A stretch of DNA of 64,000 nucleotides, taken from NCBI GenBank assembly GCA_951406725.2, contig OX597815.1:28644001-28708000 (forward strand). Reading direction: 5' to 3'. Below, piece by piece: positions 7,390 through 63,655 of this stretch (positions are counted from its first letter, which is position 1; each line of letters starts with the position of its first letter). This DNA comes from Octopus vulgaris (taxonomy: Eukaryota). The notes beneath the pieces were generated by a model. It saw only the letters and a list, made by a program, of their open reading frames with translations, had not been told where the DNA came from and did no database searches. The position numbers and the translations under genes are program-made.

Positions 7390-8596
7390 TACAAGGGTCA
7401 GCTGGAAAGTTCACAGGCTGACCAAAATACTCTCATAAAATGTGACCAAATGAGGTTTATTTTTCAACATAATCTTTCTTGTGGTCTGCACACTTCTTCC
7501 ATTGGCGTTGAATTACTTGGATCCCATTAGTGAAGAAATTTTCATCTTGTTGATCAAAAAAGTCATCAATAGCAGACATGACATCATCACTACTGTGATA
7601 CTCATTCCCAGCCAAAAGTTTTTTCATGTTGGGGAAATGGTTGATAGTCAGACGGAGCCAAATAAGGAAGCTGATTAGCCAGTTCAAAGCCACAGTTGTG
7701 CACTGTAGCCATTGAAAGCAAGGATTTGTGTGCTGGAGCATTGTCCTCACAAAACAAGACCCTTTCATCAGTTCTCCTGGGCGTTTGGTCTTGATAGCCC
7801 ATTGTAACTGCCTCAGCAAATTACCATAGTATTCTCCATTGATAGTTTGGCCCTTTTGAAGATAATCAATAAACACAATGCCTTTTGCATCCCAAAAAAA
7901 CTGAGGCCAACACCTTCCATGACTTTAGCCTTCTTTGGAATTGGTGAGGAGGGTTGTTTCTACTACACGGATAGTCTCTTTGCCTCTGACTCAAAGTGAT
8001 GAAGCCAACCCTCATCCTGAGTTAGGAATAACTCAAGGAAACCAGCTGGAGTTGCCTCAAACAATATCAGATTTTCTCCTGTGATGTGATCAACCTGATG
8101 GGCTTTTGATCAGGTATCAGAAAACATGGCACCCACCAAGCAGAATATTCTCAACTCTCTCATGAGATATGCTAATAATATTGACTATTTGATTTATAGT
8201 CAAATGCTGTTATTCATCATCACCATGTGGTGAACACAATCAATGTTTTCCTTGGTGGTGGCAGTTGTAGGACGTCCAGACCTTGAGTCATCTTCAAGAC
8301 TGATGCTTCTCTTAATTCAGCTGCTCACTTTTCCACTGTTGATAAAGCTGGAGCATTCTCCCTTAATATAGCAACCATGTCAGCATGAATGCCCAGGTAC
8401 TTGATAACACCATGATGCCAAAATTTGTCCATTTTCAAGAGAAGTGACTACTAATTACTTTTGAAGTGTTCTTTACCTGGAAGGAAACAATGCAATTATT
8501 AATAAGAAAAGTTAAGATTAGTAAATGCCAAGTTTCACAATTCTAACATCACTCTTTCATAGTCAGCTTATGAACTTTTCAGCTCACCTTCATGTA
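7390..8596 (-). mobile_element. Near full-length decayed mariner (Tc1/mariner, DD34D) transposon
   Basis: Degenerate ~30-bp TIRs with TA ends (tacaagggtcagctggaaagttcacaggctgac / gtcagcttatgaacttttcagctcaccttcatgta). Frameshifted transposase motifs LEDDSRSGRP, DYLQKGQTINGEYY, DNAPAH, LAPSDY and WKKC..DYVEK. Confidence 0.9.
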
Positions 8597-9438: not shown

Positions 9439-10104
9439 ATGGATTCATCAAACTTAAGTAATTCTGAAATACCAATTTTAATGAAAAGATGCAAAAGCTA
9501 TGCTGAATTTTTGTGTGGTTATGGTGCTACCTTTATCAACATTACTGTCACATTTCCCATTTGCCAGCCTTGCCTGGCCCCCATGATGGTGGCACGTAAA
9601 AAGCACCATCCGTCCGTGACCGTCTGCCAGCCCCGTCTGGCACCTGTGCGTGTGGCATGTAAAAAGCACCCACTACACTCACGGAGTGGTTGGTGTTAGG
9701 AAGGGCATCCAGCCATAGAAACACTGCCAGATCAGACTGGGCCTGGTGCAGCCTTCAGGCTTCCCAGACCCCAGTTGAACCGTCCAACCCATGCTAGCAT
9801 GGAAAGCGGACGCTAAATGATGATGATGAAGGTGACATTTCGTCAGCAGCGCTATGGTGTAAGTAGTGAGACTGCTTATAAACAAATATATCATGAAGGT
9901 CTATGCCAATTATACTGTGAGCTTCTGCCTCCTTTGTTACAAAAGTCAACGTCTGTTGCAGCTATGTTTGGAATTTATCAGAGTTACAATGAAATACTCT
10001 TGAGGAAAACTAATCTGCCAAAAGATGTCAGGAAAGGCACTGCTGCATGTTTTGCTGGAACTACAGAAGCTATTTTGACACCTTTTGAGCGCATACAGAC
10101 ACTT
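9439..10104 (+). pseudogene. SLC25A51: Truncated SLC25A51/MCART1-like mitochondrial NAD+ carrier copy, interrupted by a retroposon insertion (9560-9828)
   Basis: Two in-frame pieces, ...EFLCGYGATFINITVTFPI and KVTFRQQRYG...LLPPLLQKSTSVAAMFGIY...AACFAGTTEAILTPFERIQTL, match the SLC25A51 motifs TFPIxKVxFRQQ, PPLxQK and AGTTEAIxTPxERxQTL. The insertion carries in-frame stops, the C-terminal half is absent, and LYRG has decayed to LYCE. Confidence 0.88.
9560..9828 (+). mobile_element. Family-D retroposon (RTE 3' UTR or MetaSINE-like) inserted in the SLC25A51 copy
   Basis: ggcacgtaaaaagcacc subrepeats, ttaggaagggcatccagc core, (ATG)n tail. Confidence 0.85.
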
Positions 10105-18062: not shown

Positions 18063-18461
18063 ACTTTTTTACCTATCTGGAATTATATTATCCCCTGTAT
18101 TCTAAACAGTAGGTTGTAATTTGAGACAGATTTCACTCTTATTTGGTTAATCTAGAGCTATAACAGAAGACACTTACTAGGTTCCACGTAGTACCCAAAA
18201 CCATATGGTTTGGAAGCAAACTTCTTAACAACACAGACCTGCCGGTTTATTAACCATAGACTAGTTCACAGATTAAATTATAAACAGTGTCCAAAGTGTG
18301 ACATAAAGGAATAATGTTGAAATATATTAATGACATATCACATTATCATATACATGTTGCGTTTATTACAAAAATACTTCTAGATTTATTCATTCTTACA
18401 AAAGTTCTTTTGTTAGACTTACAACCTTAAGAATGTCATTTTATCATTATGTCATTTAAAA

Positions 18462-18682
18462 TTATAACTCTTTTTTCTGCAAGTCCTTCAGAAAGGATGT
18501 TACATTGAAATTCTTTACCATCTTCATTACTTTGTTCATATCTATGTTAGAGGCAACGTCCGAAATAAATTTTGAAGCTAGTTCCTTCCAGTTATTTTGA
18601 TCCAAAATTAATTTAAGTGGGTCGTCATTGAGTTGTTTTCCTTTTTTCTTGGCCTTCTCCTTTTTCAAACCATTGCAAAATA
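18462..18682 (-). CDS. Gene B last exon: small signal-peptide protein ending in KKEL, (V)FCNGLKKEKAKKKGKQLNDDPLKLILDQNNWKELASKFISDVASNIDMNKVMKMVKNFNVTSFLKDLQKKEL*
   Basis: Minus-strand acceptor tcttttgtttttacag at 18683-18698 and a 221-nt open frame to TAA. AATAAA signals on the minus strand at 18385-18390 and 18362-18367. Confidence 0.85.
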
Positions 18683-18894
18683 CTGTAAAAACAAAAGATT
18701 TTTTTTCTCAAAACAAGAAATTAATGTATATTCTTCACTTTTGTTTAAATTTCACAAATCTGTAAAACCAATATAATGGTTTTACTGACTTACACTCAAA
18801 ACACACATACACAAACACAAACACGTACACACACACACACACACATACCCTCACACACACACATGAGGTCTGATTAAAAAGTATTAGGACAAGT

Positions 18895-19248
18895 AACAAT
18901 AACTCTGAGCACCTTTTCAAACTCCACCTGCCTAACACCCATGGACATGTTTACAAAGTCAGAAAACAGCACAGCTCCCATGACTTTCGGAAACATTTTG
19001 CTGCCGGCATCAGTTGTTAGTTGTCGGAGCACTGCATCCTTCAAAATTTCCATGCTTCCTGAGATTCGCCAACACTACACCTGATTTTCTCCCCTCCATA
19101 CACACGCAAGTATGTATCTGACTCATACACTGTTCACTCCCCAGACATTTGTACATTACTGCATATGCTTTATATGCACTTTTGACAAGTTGTGATGCAC
19201 CTGAGCACTGTATACAATAATTTCATTATTATTATTATTATTATTATT
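18895..19248 (+). mobile_element. CR1-type LINE 3' tail with (ATT)n; reverse-oriented sibling at 2947-3186
   Basis: Homologous to the 3' end of 15200-15880. The two short copies are near-identical reverse complements. Confidence 0.7.
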
Positions 19249-19289
19249 TATAGGTACTACAAAAAAAAAACTACACCACACATCAACCT

Positions 19290-19600
19290 GGCTTTTAGTA
19301 ATTCCTTCTGAAGCCATACCAGCTTTGTTTCCATTCATGGAAGCATTCCCAGAACTTCATTTTTGGGATAGCAAGCAAGCTGCCTTGTAACATTTTCTTG
19401 GATTTCCTCACCATTTTGAAATCTTGTTCCTTTCAAGCCTTGGTTTCGGGCATTAGCCATAGACCTACAATTTGTCACCTCTTATGATCCTTTTTAACAT
19501 AATCAAGGAGACCCTGCTCATCAGAAACCCAATCTTCTTTTTGAAGTGACTACACTCTTCACACTTCACTTCCAAGCACTGCTATAAACAGCAGAAGTGA
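19290..19600 (-). mobile_element. Internally deleted mariner relic in the intron of gene B
   Basis: Minus-strand remnants resembling ITGDETWVYGYDPETK (IRGDKL*VYG..PETK) and RFQNGEEIQENVTRQL..IPK..FWECFHEWKQSW. Confidence 0.6.
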
Positions 19601-19750
19601 ACAAGAATGTTATAATTTAGTGTGCATGTGCAACAGAGTTCAAGGTCAATCTGTGCCAATTGGCTTCCCTCTGCTTACTTTAGCTTTGTCAGCACCTCTT
19701 CAGCAATTAGCTTATTAATATGATTCATTAATTCAGAGAAATATACTTAC

Positions 19751-19796
19751 CTGAAAATGTGATAAGAAGAAGCAGCATAAAATGTATAGACTGCAT
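19751..19796 (-). CDS. Gene B first coding exon: signal peptide MQSIHFMLLLLITFS(V)
   Basis: Exon 19751-19815 is bounded by acceptor ttatttgtttcag and donor cag|gtaagt. ATG at 19796 in acaATG context. The phase-1 intron joins in frame to the 18462-18682 exon. Confidence 0.85.
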
Positions 19797-20063
19797 TGTG
19801 TATGTTGATTATTACCTGAAACAAATAAGATAAATGTATGTTGATTTTATTCATTTATTTATTTTGATAGATCTGAGGGAGGGGCAGAACCTATATCTTT
19901 TGCAGGCACTCCAAGATTATTCGGTTTGACACAGCTAATCTTTCCTTTAAAATGTTGCAAGTCAGTGACTGCTATAAACATACGAGCAGAGAGATATTTT
20001 TAGAAGGAATACATTTTAGGGAGTAAGGACTTGTTTTAGTCGTTAGTGTATAACCCCTGTATA

Positions 20064-33619: not shown

Positions 33620-34033
33620 GGCGGCGAGCTGGCAGAAACGTTAACACGCCAGGCGAAATGCTTAGCGGTATTTTGTCTGCCGCATCGTTCTGAGTTCAAA
33701 TTCCGCCGAGGTCGACTTTGCCTTTCATCCTTTCGGGGTCGATTAGATAAGTACCAGTTACGCACTGGGGTCGATATAATCGACTCAATCCGTTTATCTG
33801 TCCTTGTTTGTCCTCTTTGTGTTTAGCCCCTTGTAGGTAGTAAAGAAATGGGTATTTCGTCTGCCGCTACGTTCTGAGTTCAAATTCAGCCGAGGTCGAC
33901 TTTGCCTTTCATCCTTTCGGGATCGATAGATAAAGTACCAGTTGCGCACTGGGGTCGATGTAATCGACTTTATCCCTTTGTCTGTCTTTGTTTGTCCCCT
34001 CTGTGTTTAGCCCCTTGTGGGTAATAAAGAAAT
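33620..34033 (+). mobile_element. Family-A SINE dimer
   Basis: Second unit starts at ggtatttcgtc. A single TSD atataatc(c/t)cctttta flanks the whole dimer. Confidence 0.9.
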
Positions 34034-40862: not shown

Positions 40863-41295
40863 GGATCTTTTCGGTTTGAACGGCAGTTTTTAAAAATAGT
40901 TTCCACGTAGCTAAACACTTTTAAACTTCGTATACTGGTAGAATGTGTTTATAAAACATCTTTTTCTTTTGGCTTTATTGAGAAAATTCTATAGTTTGTA
41001 AGATATTTGTTGTTTTTTTTTTCTTCAATTTCTGTAATTTCAACCAATCGATGACGTCCATTGAGATGAAAACATTCTGTGCCGTATGAATATGTCCCAC
41101 GTTTAAGAAACAGATTGGGTTTATTTACATTTCTGAAGAAAAAAGATACCCTTCCCCCACCCCTAACCCTAGCCCTAACTAACCGTAACCCTAAAACAGA
41201 TTGAAATGCAATAGATCGATACTAGGGTCATAATTATGGGTGACAATTTCATATGACACCGCTAGAAAAAACTGCCGTTCAAACCAAAAAGATCA
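40863..41295. mobile_element. MITE with GG-start TIRs and 8-bp TSD (Merlin-like), with internal CCCTAA repeats
   Basis: ~28-bp TIR ggatcttttcggtttgaacggcagtttt. TSD tgtatttt at 40855-40862 and 41296-41303. Confidence 0.8.
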
Positions 41296-49782: not shown

Positions 49783-50035
49783 TTAGGGTGTCAGCATCAT
49801 GATTGTAAGATTGTGGTTTCGATTCCTGGACCGGGTGACACGTTACGTACTTGAGTAAAACACTTCATTTCACGTTGCTCCAGTCCACTCAGCTGGCAAA
49901 AATGAGTAACGCTGCGATGGACTGGCGTCCCATCCAGCTGGGGAACACATACGCCATAGAAACCCGGAAACTGGGTCTATGAGCCTGGCTAGGCCTTAAA
50001 AGGGCACATTTATATTATTATTATTATTATTATTA
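49783..50035 (+). mobile_element. Family-C-related SINE with a different 3' half and an (ATT)n tail
   Basis: tRNA head gcgtggcttagtggttagg and the shared core ttgctccagtccactcagctg. Confidence 0.75.
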
Positions 50036-50109
50036 TTTTATTTGTATGTATGTATGTATGTATGTATGTATGTATGTATGTATGTATGTATGTATGTATG
50101 TATGTATGT

Positions 50110-50357
50110 ATCTGTCAGGCATGTGGAAGAGAGTGTAATTCGACAGGAGGACTTAAACGACATGTAAAGGTACATGAAGCCCAGTTACAACTACAGCCGG
50201 CTATTACTAGTAAAGGTTTTAGTTGCCAATTCTGTACAAGACATTGTAGATCTTTAGCTGGACTAAAAAGTCACATTCGATCACAGCACCAGTAACAGTT
50301 AAGCTTCGTGCAATGGCCATACTCGATAACAGGGGGCAGCCATCATGTATGTATGTA
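50110..50357 (+). mobile_element. 5'-truncated RTE-type LINE 3' end with two C-terminal C2H2 fingers and an (ATGT)n tail
   Basis: ICQACGRECNSTGGLKRHVKVH...FSCQFCTRHCRSLAGLKSHIRSQHQ*, a short 3' UTR, then atgtatgtatgta. No splice acceptor upstream. Confidence 0.65.
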
Positions 50358-54993: not shown

Positions 54994-55794
54994 TTATTTC
55001 TTTATTGCCCACAGGGAGCTAAACATAGAGGGGACAAACAAGGACAGATAAAGGGTTTCAGTCGATTACATCGACCCAAGTGCGTATCTGGTACATAATT
55101 TACCGGCCCCGAAAGGATGAAAGGCAAAGTCGACCTCGGCGGAATTTGAACTCAGGGCGTAAAGACAGACGAAATACCGATTTCTTTACTACCCACAAGG
55201 GGCTAAACGCAGAGAGGACAAACAAGGACAGACAAATGGATTAAGTCGATTACATCGACCCAAGTGCGTTACTGGTACTTATTTAATCGACCCCGAAAGG
55301 ATGAAAGGCAAAGTCAACCTCGGCGGAATTTGAACGATTCTGCCAGCTCACCGCCCTACCTCTTCGTCAATAATGTTATCTAATTCTTTATTGCACACAA
55401 GGGGCTAAACATAGAGGGGATAAACAAGGACAGACAAATGGATTAAGTCGATTACATCGACCCAAGTGCGTAACTGGTACTTATTTAATCGACCCCGAAA
55501 GGATGAAAGGCAAAGTTAACCTCGGCGGAATTTGAACTCAGAGCGTAGCAGCAGACGAAATACCTATTTCTTTATTACCCACAAGGGGCTAAACACAGAG
55601 GGGACAAACAAGGATAGACATAGGTATTAAGTCGATTACATCGACCCCAGTGCGTAACTGGTACTTGATTTATCGACCCCGAAAGGATGAAAGGCAAAGT
55701 CGACCTCGGCGGAATTTGAGCTCACAACGTAACGCAGACGAAATACTGCTAAGCATTTCGCCCGACGCGCTAACGATTCCGCCAGCTCGCCGCC
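54994..55794 (-). mobile_element. Two adjacent family-A SINE dimers (54994-55355 and 55385-55794)
   Basis: Four core units. The first dimer is flanked by acct(g/c)ttcgtcaataat. Confidence 0.88.
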
Positions 55795-57339: not shown

Positions 57340-58010
57340 TATTATTGTTGCTGTTGTTATTGTTGTTGTTGTTATTGTTGTTGTTGTTGTTGTTCTTCTT
57401 CTTCTTCTTCTTCTTCTTCTCCTTCTCCTTCTTCTTCTTCTTCTCCTTCTCCTTCTCCTTCTTCTTCTTCTTCTTCTCCTCCTTCTTCGTCTTCTTCGTC
57501 TTCTTCGTCTTCTTCTTCTTCTTCTTCTTCTTCTTCTTCTTCTTCTTCTTCGTCTTCTTCGTCTTCTTCGTCTTCTTCTTCTTCTTCTTCTTCTTCTTCT
57601 TCTTCGTCTTCTTCGTCTTCTTCTTCTTCTTCTTCTTCTTCTTCTTCTTCTTCTTCTTCTTCGTCTTCTTCTTCGTCTTCGTCTTCTTCGTCTTCTTCTT
57701 CGTCTTCGTCTTCTTCGTCTTCGTCTTCGTCTTCGTCTTCTTCTTCTCCTTCTTCTTCTTCTTCTTCTCCTTCTTCTTCTTCTTCATCTTCTTCTTCTCC
57801 TTCTTCTTCTTCTTCTTCTTCTCCTTCTTCTCCTTCTTCTTCTCTTTCTTCTTCTTCTTCGTCTTCTTCTTTTTCTTCTTCTTCTTCTTCTTCTTCTTCT
57901 TCTTCTTCTTCTTCTTCTTCTTCTTCTTCTTCTTCTCCTTCTCCTTCTTCTTCTTCTTCTTCTTCTTCTTCTTCTTCTTCTTCTTCTTCTTCTTCTTCTC
58001 CTTCTTCTCC

Positions 58011-58072
<62 letters not shown>

Positions 58073-58537: not shown

Positions 58538-59055
58538 GGCAGCGAGCAGTGAGCAGGCAGAATCGTTAGCACGTCGAGCGAAATGCTTAGCGGTATTTCG
58601 TCTGTCGCTACGTTCTGAGTTCAAATTCCGCCGAGGTCGACTTTGCCTTTCATCCTTTCGGGGTCGATTAAATAAGTACCAGTTACGCACTGGGGTCGAT
58701 ATAATCGACTTAATCCTTTTGTCTGTCCTTGTTTGTCCTCTCTGTGTTTAGCTCCTTGTGGGTAATAAAGAAATAGGTATTTTGTCTGCCGCTACGCTCT
58801 GAGTTCAAATTCTGCCGAGGTCGACTTTGCCTTTCATCCTTTCGGGGTCGATAAATTAAGTACTAGTTACGCACTGGGGTTGATGTAATCGATTTAATCC
58901 GGTTGTCTGTCCTTGTATGTCCCCTCTATGTTTAGCCCCTTGTGGGCAATAAAGAAATAATTAGAGGTATTTCGCACGTCACTACGTTTTGCATTCAAAT
59001 TCCGCCGAGGTCGACTTTGCCTGTCATCCTTTCGGAGTCGATAAAATAAGTACCA
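58538..59055 (+). mobile_element. Family-A SINE trimer
   Basis: One head unit plus two headless units starting at ggtattt. Confidence 0.85.
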
Positions 59056-63239: not shown

Positions 63240-63655
63240 GGCGACGAGCTGGCAGAATCGCTAGCACGCCGGGCGAAATGCATAGTGGTATTTCGTTTGC
63301 CGTTACGTTCTGAGTTCAAATTCCGCCGAGGTCGATTTTGCTTTTCATCCTTTCGGGGTCGATAAATTAAGTACCAGTTACACACTGGGGTCGATGTAAT
63401 CGACTTAATACCTATGTCTGTCCTTGTTTGTCCCTTCTGTGTTTAGCCTCTTGTGAGTAATAAAGAAATAGAAATAGGTATTTCGTCTGCCGTTACGTTC
63501 TAAGTTCAAATTCCGCCGAGGTCGATTTTGCCTTTCATCCTTTCGGGGTCGATAAATTAAGTACCAGTTACACACTGGGGTCGATGTAATCGACTTAATC
63601 CTTTTGACTGTCCTTGTTTGTCCCTTCTATGTTTAGCTCTCTGTGGGAAATAAAA
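63240..63655 (+). mobile_element. Family-A SINE dimer
   Basis: Same junction gaaataggtatttcgtc at about 63471-63487. Confidence 0.88.

What the first reader, a model, noticed from the sequence alone, without database searches (positions are those of the whole stretch)
18462..19815. Hidden 88-aa signal-peptide microprotein ending in KKEL
Seen: two minus-strand exons with strong splice sites join in phase 1 to give MQSIHFMLLLLITFSVFCNG-LKKEKAKKKGKQLNDDPLKLILDQNNWKELASKFISDVASNIDMNKVMKMVKNFNVTSFLKDLQKKEL. It has 16 Lys against 9 Asp/Glu, one NVT sequon, amphipathic-helix periodicity, and AATAAA sites 70-100 nt past the stop. The ORF track misses the signal peptide. Known: a signal peptide plus a C-terminal KDEL-like xxEL marks ER-lumen proteins, although KKEL is not a strict PROSITE PS00014 match. 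Inference: an unrecognised ER-resident microprotein or a secreted cationic amphipathic peptide. I recognise no family.
Basis: partly seen in the sequence, partly recalled or inferred. Interest (0 to 1): 0.75.

Follow-up and report, generated by a model that had tools for sequence, protein, structure and literature searches.

The report
Octopus ER microprotein ending in KKEL
A single-copy, spliced octopus gene encodes an 88-amino-acid protein of no recognised family, shared with the paper nautilus, that likely enters the endoplasmic reticulum through a predicted signal peptide and is likely held there, probably leakily, by its KKEL tail; its job there is untested.

Summary
The gene is real. The spliced 88-aa frame is exactly as reported. 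A contig from one run (RNA by guess) crosses junction 19751/18682, and a second run of the same study fits. One relative turned up among 1.84 billion proteins: an Argonauta hians hypothetical protein, 52 of 88 residues identical, with the same signal-like start, N-x-T sequon and terminal KKEL. Both coding variants seen are synonymous. The gene is single-copy, matches no family at any cut-off, and probably has a further upstream non-coding exon.

Best reading (0.6): a cleaved signal peptide, then a cysteine-free 68-aa lumenal protein of short amphipathic helices, retrieved by the KDEL receptor. Lys at -3 would face receptor Arg169, so retrieval is probably weak. Caveat: the last 28 residues are 79% identical anyway, so keeping KKEL is itself unremarkable (p about 0.3-0.4). 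A cationic antimicrobial peptide is disfavoured, because the charge sits in the least conserved segment. New rival: KKEL is also an exact dilysine (KKxx) motif, which would act if the N-terminus were an uncleaved anchor (0.1). Localisation and function are untested.

The parts
19751..19815 (-). Exon carrying 19 nt of 5' UTR (two in-frame stops at 19814-19809) and codons 1-15 plus the first base of codon 16; ATG at 19796; probably the second exon of the gene
   Evidence: acceptor ...TTTGTTTCAG at 19816; X2 contig loose end; X1 depth 0.97 in bin 19775-19917 fits 41 covered bases (0.975), not 50 (1.19)
18683..19750 (-). 1,068-nt GT-AG phase-1 intron; holds a CA microsatellite and a dispersed repeat (about 18790-19240)
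   Evidence: skipped by the X2 contig
18462..18682 (-). Coding part of the terminal exon (codons 16-88 and stop)
   Evidence: X1 contig covers 18459-18682 with one synonymous difference; single genomic copy
18669..18682 (-). End of the predicted signal peptide (residues 16-20); likely cleavage after Gly20 (Cys/Ser at -3, Gly at -1), alternatively after residue 18
   Evidence: Manual (-3,-1) check; apolar run 13 aa, 16 in Argonauta; SignalP not available
18630..18668 (-). Lys-rich segment (residues 21-33, net +6; +5 in Argonauta), low model confidence, sequence poorly conserved
   Evidence: 6 of 14 identical over residues 21-34
18471..18620 (-). Four predicted short helices (residues 37-42, 47-60, 64-72, 76-86), the last three amphipathic; hydrophobic pattern fully kept in Argonauta
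   Evidence: 22 of 22 hydrophobic positions in residues 35-84 stay hydrophobic
18498..18506 (-). N-x-T sequon (Asn75; NVT here, NLT in Argonauta); also the N-cap of the last predicted helix
18465..18476 (-). Terminal KKEL: a K-x-E-L (KDEL-receptor type) signal and also an exact KKxx dilysine motif
   Evidence: unchanged in DNA of organisms C and D
18362..18390 (-). Two AATAAA hexamers (18390-18385, 18367-18362); a third at 18251-18246; use not shown

Best explanation
[quoted passage not shown] Shown: gene structure, splicing, an orthologue, synonymous-only coding variation, and a KDEL receptor gene in the same genome that keeps the pocket residues checked. Predicted: signal cleavage after Gly20, the helices, glycosylation of Asn75. 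Inferred: retrieval and its leakiness. Most speculative (about 0.3 within this reading): it acts as a small non-enzymatic adaptor or escort that folds on a partner, laying its conserved hydrophobic faces on a client protein or on lipid, as RAP or MESD do for their clients (recalled analogy). It has no cysteine or other obvious catalytic motif in the mature chain.
For: Gene. Orthologue GAB1604872.1, E 9e-16, 52 of 88 identical, same start, same sequon, KKEL directly before the stop. Signal: the apolar run is 13 aa (16 in Argonauta) with small residues at -3/-1; Wahlberg and Spiess give 7-15 residues for cleaved signals and 19-27 for anchors, with short ones sending the C-terminus into the lumen (PMC2139883, abstract and introduction). 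Tail: a [KRHNFWY]-x-E-[LF] end arises in 0.33% (Octopus) and 0.19% (Argonauta) of composition shuffles, against 9.5% and 4.6% for a dilysine end, so the E-L is the improbable part. Raykhel 2007 tested all AKXEL variants and states that -3 accepts every residue but Pro; all 16 human proteins with non-Prosite motifs that they cloned were in the ER (PMC2140024). The genome's KDEL receptor keeps R47, Y48, D50, E117, W120, R159, Y162, W166 and R169 (R5 lies outside the exons read). Selection: exon 2 has 1 difference in 221 coding nt (synonymous) against 10 and 11 in 225 flanking nt in organisms C and D, Fisher p 0.011 and 0.006.
Against: Keeping all four tail residues has a chance of 0.32-0.38 at the local identity (0.12 at whole-protein identity), and only one distant relative was found. 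Gerondopoulos 2021 places the -3 Asp in a salt bridge with R169 and writes of a requirement for acidic residues at -2 and -3 (PMC8248988); Lys there is a charge reversal kept in both species. The actual AKKEL value in Raykhel's Fig. 3B could not be seen, and that paper reports that many motif-bearing proteins stay in the ER without the motif. The last predicted helix runs to residue 86-87, into the motif. The flanking charge difference (+4.5 and +3.0 on the C side) points to the opposite topology. The sequon may be a by-product of helix capping. The selection test weakens to p 0.088 with listed differences only; the position of the unlisted ones is inferred, and C and D share most differences, so they are not independent. 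The models have pTM 0.33. No client is known.
Confidence: 0.6

Rival explanations
1. It is a secreted amphipathic helical peptide (small apolipoprotein-like lipid carrier, surface-active or antimicrobial peptide), and KKEL is just the end of the last helix or too weak to retain it.
For: Signal peptide plus three amphipathic helices in both species; mature pI about 9.6-9.8; tail conservation no higher than its neighbourhood; Lys at -3 opposes receptor R169. Most small signal-bearing proteins are secreted (general knowledge).
Against: A receptor-type tail arises by chance in about 0.3% of shuffles and is kept with the stop in the same place. The charge lies in the least conserved part (6 of 14 identical); the conserved last 28 residues are net +3 and 0. 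The gene is single-copy with only synonymous coding variants, unlike the multi-copy, fast-evolving pattern usual for defence and venom peptides (recalled).
Confidence: 0.22
2. The N-terminal segment is an uncleaved reverse signal-anchor (N in the lumen, C in the cytosol); the helices lie on the cytosolic membrane face, and KKEL is read by COPI as a KKxx dilysine signal, so the protein is still ER-resident but as a membrane microprotein.
For: Lys at -4 and -3 in both species matches the strict KKxx rule (PMC3521961 passages). A +5/+6 cluster follows the apolar run directly and keeps its charge while its sequence drifts; charge difference +4.5 and +3.0. This explains why -3 is Lys rather than Asp.
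Against: The apolar run (13 and 16 aa) is short of the 19-27 aa usual for anchors, and short runs favour C-terminal translocation. The polar S/C-N-G c-region with a (-3,-1) site is conserved. A dilysine end is cheap by chance (5-9%), whereas the E-L (0.6-0.8%) is left unexplained. The N-x-T sequon is conserved.
Confidence: 0.1
3. It is a neuropeptide or hormone precursor that is cut at dibasic sites to release a helical peptide of the CRH/DH44/egg-laying-hormone type.
For: Signal peptide, probable non-coding first exon, KK pairs at residues 22-23 and 85-86 in both species, and a conserved helical core between them.
Against: No KR or RR site in the Octopus protein (no Arg in the mature chain). 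The one Gly-basic site is not conserved, and there is no C-terminal amidation glycine. No Pfam hormone family matched either protein.
Confidence: 0.04

Closest known systems
GAB1604872.1, hypothetical protein Ahia01_000768700 [Argonauta hians] (P0001)
   Same: Orthologue: 87 aa, 52 of 88 identical, same signal-like start, basic segment, helix pattern, sequon and KKEL end.
   Different: A gene prediction with no function; its cluster has 1 member; its C-terminal 28 residues are net neutral.
Small soluble ER proteins with non-Prosite KDEL variants (ERp18 EDEL and ERp27 KVEL, named in PMC2140024; AGR2 KTEL, MANF, MYDGF recalled)
   Same: Signal peptide plus K/R/H-x-E-L tail; a non-acidic -3 residue; partial secretion is known for some of these (recalled).
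   Different: No thioredoxin, saposin or other Pfam domain matched; no mature cysteine; 68 aa mature, shorter than those I recall; found only in octopods so far.
RAP (LRPAP1) and MESD, ER escorts of LDL-receptor-family proteins
   Same: Works-like analogy only (recalled): helical, Lys-rich, non-enzymatic, signal peptide plus xxEL tail.
   Different: No sequence match to these families; far shorter; the genome has a separate RAP-family match on C25, so this is not a replacement.
KKxx dilysine cargo of COPI (for example Wbp1 KKTN)
   Same: Lys at -3 and -4 of the free C-terminus.
   Different: Needs a membrane anchor and a cytosolic tail; the apolar run here looks like a cleaved signal.
Small exchangeable apolipoproteins (apoC-I type) and linear helical antimicrobial peptides (recalled)
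   Same: Size, signal peptide, no disulfides, short amphipathic helices.
   Different: No family match; near-neutral conserved core; retrieval-type tail.

Membership tests
KDEL-receptor-retrieved ER lumenal protein | Cleavable N-terminal signal peptide, no other membrane span | tested here: met
   Manual check only: 13/16-aa apolar run, (-3,-1) site, no second apolar run, both species. SignalP not run.
KDEL-receptor-retrieved ER lumenal protein | PROSITE PS00014 [KRHQSA]-[DENQ]-E-L | tested here: not met
   -3 is Lys (pattern as quoted in PMC2140024).
KDEL-receptor-retrieved ER lumenal protein | Experimentally widened motif K-[not Pro]-E-L at the free C-terminus, conserved | tested here: met
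   conservation is not above the local background; a later structural paper expects an acidic -3.
KDEL-receptor-retrieved ER lumenal protein | Motif-dependent ER localisation | not testable with these tools
   Needs cell experiments.
KKxx dilysine (COPI) membrane cargo | Lys at -3 and -4 | tested here: met
KKxx dilysine (COPI) membrane cargo | Membrane anchor with cytosolic C-terminus | tested here: inconclusive
   Apolar run shorter than usual anchors, but flanking charges favour this orientation.
RAP / MESD escorts | Sequence match to the family profiles | tested here: not met
   Pfam scans of both proteins: no family at cut-off; only DUF4100 at E 0.09, 13 bits against a cut-off of 27.9.
RAP / MESD escorts | Three-helix-bundle fold | tested here: inconclusive
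   Models have pTM 0.33; fold searches are uninformative at that quality.
Linear cationic antimicrobial peptide | Conserved net-positive amphipathic helix | tested here: inconclusive
   Helices are amphipathic; net charge 0, +3, +2 here and +2, +1, +1 in Argonauta; the main charge lies outside them.
Linear cationic antimicrobial peptide | Antimicrobial activity | not testable with these tools
   Needs an assay.
CRH/DH44/ELH-type neuropeptide precursor | Conserved KR/RR sites and a C-terminal Gly-basic amidation signal | tested here: not met
   (family features recalled).

The most novel reading that the evidence does not exclude
A dual-topology microprotein whose one KKEL tail serves two retrieval systems: the KDEL receptor when the signal is cleaved and the chain is lumenal, and COPI as a KKxx motif when the same N-terminus stays as a reverse anchor. 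This would explain why the short hydrophobic run, the +5/+6 cluster behind it, the -3 Lys and the E-L are all conserved together.
Probability: 0.06. Interest if true: 0.8.

Novelty: new variant of a known kind. Interest (0 to 1): 0.42.

Why it matters
It is a conserved protein-coding gene for which no Octopus protein turned up in a 5.8-billion-protein collection, so small spliced genes seem to be missing from octopus proteomes. If ER residence holds, a cysteine-free 68-aa lumenal protein limited to octopods would be a lineage-specific addition to the normally ancient ER folding machinery, and its client could point to an octopod-specific secretory product. It is also a natural test of a point on which two papers differ: whether the KDEL receptor accepts Lys at -3. 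There is no sign yet of new chemistry or a new pathway, so interest is moderate.

Tried and rejected
Homology: word-indexed searches with exon 2 found nothing at 39-126 aa (1 candidate) or 127-2000 aa (44 candidates); the two-sequence profile found only P0001 (1 of 8 candidates); shorter proteins were not searched. No match at cut-off in Pfam or NCBIfam. PDB sequence hits were chance-level (best E 0.19 and 0.71). Foldseek gave one row at E 6.7 and VIA-align had no Z of 5 or more among 48,161 chains; with pTM 0.33 this shows nothing about the fold. The ESM Atlas could not be searched. The homodimer prediction gave no answer (score 0.00, alignment not used) and counts neither way.

Paralogues: the only other genomic hit (C1, E 3.0, 32%) is treated as chance and did not recur with P0001.

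RNA: no listed holder is on record as RNA. X4 and X5 did not cover exon 2, which is no evidence of silence. I first read X7's depth in two bins as a second junction contig, but laid no X7 contig on coding exon 2, so I dropped it. X7's 3' UTR contig (18154-18399) is unspliced and could be DNA. A possible internal donor at 18519 is read through by both contigs.

Literature: KKEL with KDEL returned 0 papers; KKEL with endoplasmic reticulum returned 13 whose listings look unrelated; peptide fragments and the accession returned none (where the 9 rows were unrelated 'ahia01' string matches); no fragment was found in the one readable supplement of PMC7693380 (I did not check that it holds sequences). 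Two dilysine-rule papers were not held, and the Raykhel supplements could not be read. Earlier findings of this scan: none. The idea of a replacement for a lost RAP was rejected.

Full report
Source and setting. The window lies in a 2.8-Gb, 227-contig genome. The genome size (Octopus about 3 Gb in PMC12682272 passages) and the argonaut orthologue make it an octopod, most likely Octopus (inference). About 40% of the window is self-repeat, and a simple exon scan plus a Pfam check of 7 chosen frames found no other intact gene. The gene appears to stand alone.

Observation. Joining 19796-19751 to 18682-18462 gives the reported 88-aa protein, with all counts as stated. The donor CAG|GTAAGT is unique in the window. 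Only 18682 of the 12 acceptor positions tried follows an AG. Two in-frame stops precede the ATG.

Transcription. A 287-nt contig of run X2 covers 18489-18682 and continues with exon-1 letters. Its 30 shown loose letters match window 19758 onward, and only there; the aligner overshot by 7 letters because the intron end and exon 1 differ by one letter at that place. A 298-nt contig of X1 covers 18459-18682, stop included, then 74 letters elsewhere. X1's depth in the exon-1 bin (0.97) fits 41 covered bases (0.975) rather than 50 (1.19), so this contig probably leaves the genome at 19815 and an upstream exon probably exists (inference from arithmetic). X1 and X2 belong to one study and are RNA by guess only, but a contig that skips a GT-AG intron, with only one genomic copy found, is spliced RNA. 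Of the five guessed-RNA runs laid (X1, X2, X4, X5, X7; 5 of the 20 listed), two covered the coding exon.

Conservation. HMMER over 1.84 billion representatives returned one protein at E up to 0.001: GAB1604872.1 of Argonauta hians, 87 aa. Only exon 2 was the query, yet the hit's first 15 residues match exon 1 better than any other of 127,906 window 15-mers, which confirms the model independently. Identity is 52 of 88: signal 13 of 20, basic segment 6 of 14, middle 11 of 26, last 28 residues 22 of 28. All 22 hydrophobic positions in residues 35-84 stay hydrophobic. The paper describing that genome uses 29 Ma as the lower bound of the Argonauta-Octopus split (PMC12682272 passages). In DNA contigs of organisms C and D, exon 2 has one coding difference, synonymous, against 10 and 11 in 225 flanking bases (p 0.011 and 0.006; 0.088 with listed differences only; the two are not independent). 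The variant in X1 and X2 is also synonymous. No Octopus protein appeared in three word-indexed searches. I infer that the gene is unannotated in Octopus, but I could not check which proteomes the collection holds, and clustering at 50% could hide close relatives behind P0001.

Anatomy. The protein has a 13-residue apolar run (16 in Argonauta) with a likely cut after Gly20, a Lys-rich low-confidence segment, and four predicted helices (residues 37-42, 47-60, 64-72, 76-86), the last three amphipathic in both species. It has a conserved N-x-T, no mature cysteine, and KKEL before the stop (hydrophobicity scales recalled). Both AlphaFold models have confident helices but pTM 0.33, so no tertiary fold is claimed.

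The tail. KKEL fails PROSITE PS00014. Raykhel 2007 (passages and one results part read; Fig. 3 values and supplements not visible) screened all AKXEL variants and found any -3 residue but Pro acceptable. Gerondopoulos 2021 (passages and section 6) shows the -3 Asp bound to R169 and expects acidic residues there. The octopus receptor gene keeps R169 and eight other pocket residues. Together these suggest a working but weak signal (inference). A receptor-type tail is rare by chance (0.33% and 0.19%), but its retention between the two species is unremarkable given 79% local identity (0.32-0.38). The case therefore rests on a signal peptide combined with a rare tail, more than on conservation.

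The dilysine rival. KKEL also has Lys at -3 and -4, the strict COPI rule (PMC3521961, passages), and the charge behind the apolar run favours a cytosolic C-terminus. Against this, short apolar runs behave as cleaved signals (PMC2139883, abstract and introduction), dilysine ends are cheap in so Lys-rich a chain (5-9%) while E-L ends are not (0.6-0.8%), and the sequon is kept. Either topology would place the protein in the ER.

Mechanism. Most likely it is a lumenal, weakly retrieved, non-enzymatic microprotein that folds on a partner or lipid through its conserved hydrophobic faces (0.6 for residence; the adaptor role is a guess of about 0.3 within that). Rivals are a secreted lipid-binding or defence peptide (0.22), a dilysine membrane microprotein (0.1) and a neuropeptide precursor (0.04).

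Comparison and novelty. It works like small ER proteins with variant KDEL tails, and is not a member of any family tested. The RAP and MESD likeness is an analogy from memory, and the genome has a separate RAP-family match. Searches of the held library found no description; subscription journals and most supplements were not searchable. Other papers were seen only as passages (PMC9960064; PMC13220792), as a supplement search (PMC7693380) or as search listings. Verdict: a real, conserved, apparently octopod-restricted microprotein and a new variant of a known kind; interest 0.42.

Noticed in passing
window 9835-10104 (+): Truncated mitochondrial-carrier fragment (Pfam Mito_carr, E 1e-5), 88% identical to a 315-aa open frame at G000:C4:42930313-42930582; it lies among repeats and is probably a pseudogene fragment. 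It resembles SLC25A51 (name recalled)..
   Followed up: partly
window 7460-7924 (-): Fragment of a DDE transposase (Pfam Transposase_1, E 7e-14).
   Followed up: partly
window 49993-50292 (+): C2H2 zinc-finger-like fragment next to a microsatellite; all Pfam scores are below their cut-offs.
   Followed up: partly
window 33667-34033, 54995-55746, 58592-59055, 63287-63654: Head-to-tail arrays (2-4 copies) of a 184-190-nt unit of the common dispersed repeat, which I recall as an octopus SINE.
   Followed up: no
window 41163-41194; 57393-58012: Short CCCTAA telomere-like repeat; 620-nt TTC microsatellite.
   Followed up: no
window above 19815 (-): A probable upstream non-coding exon was not located; the X1 and X2 contigs carry 9 and 28 letters beyond the ATG exon.
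   Followed up: partly
   Followed up: no
L005, L006 (G000:C3:74374932-74376356); L007 (G000:C25:4178496-4178699): One KDEL receptor locus with conserved pocket residues, and one RAP-family (Alpha-2-MRAP_C) match.
   Followed up: partly
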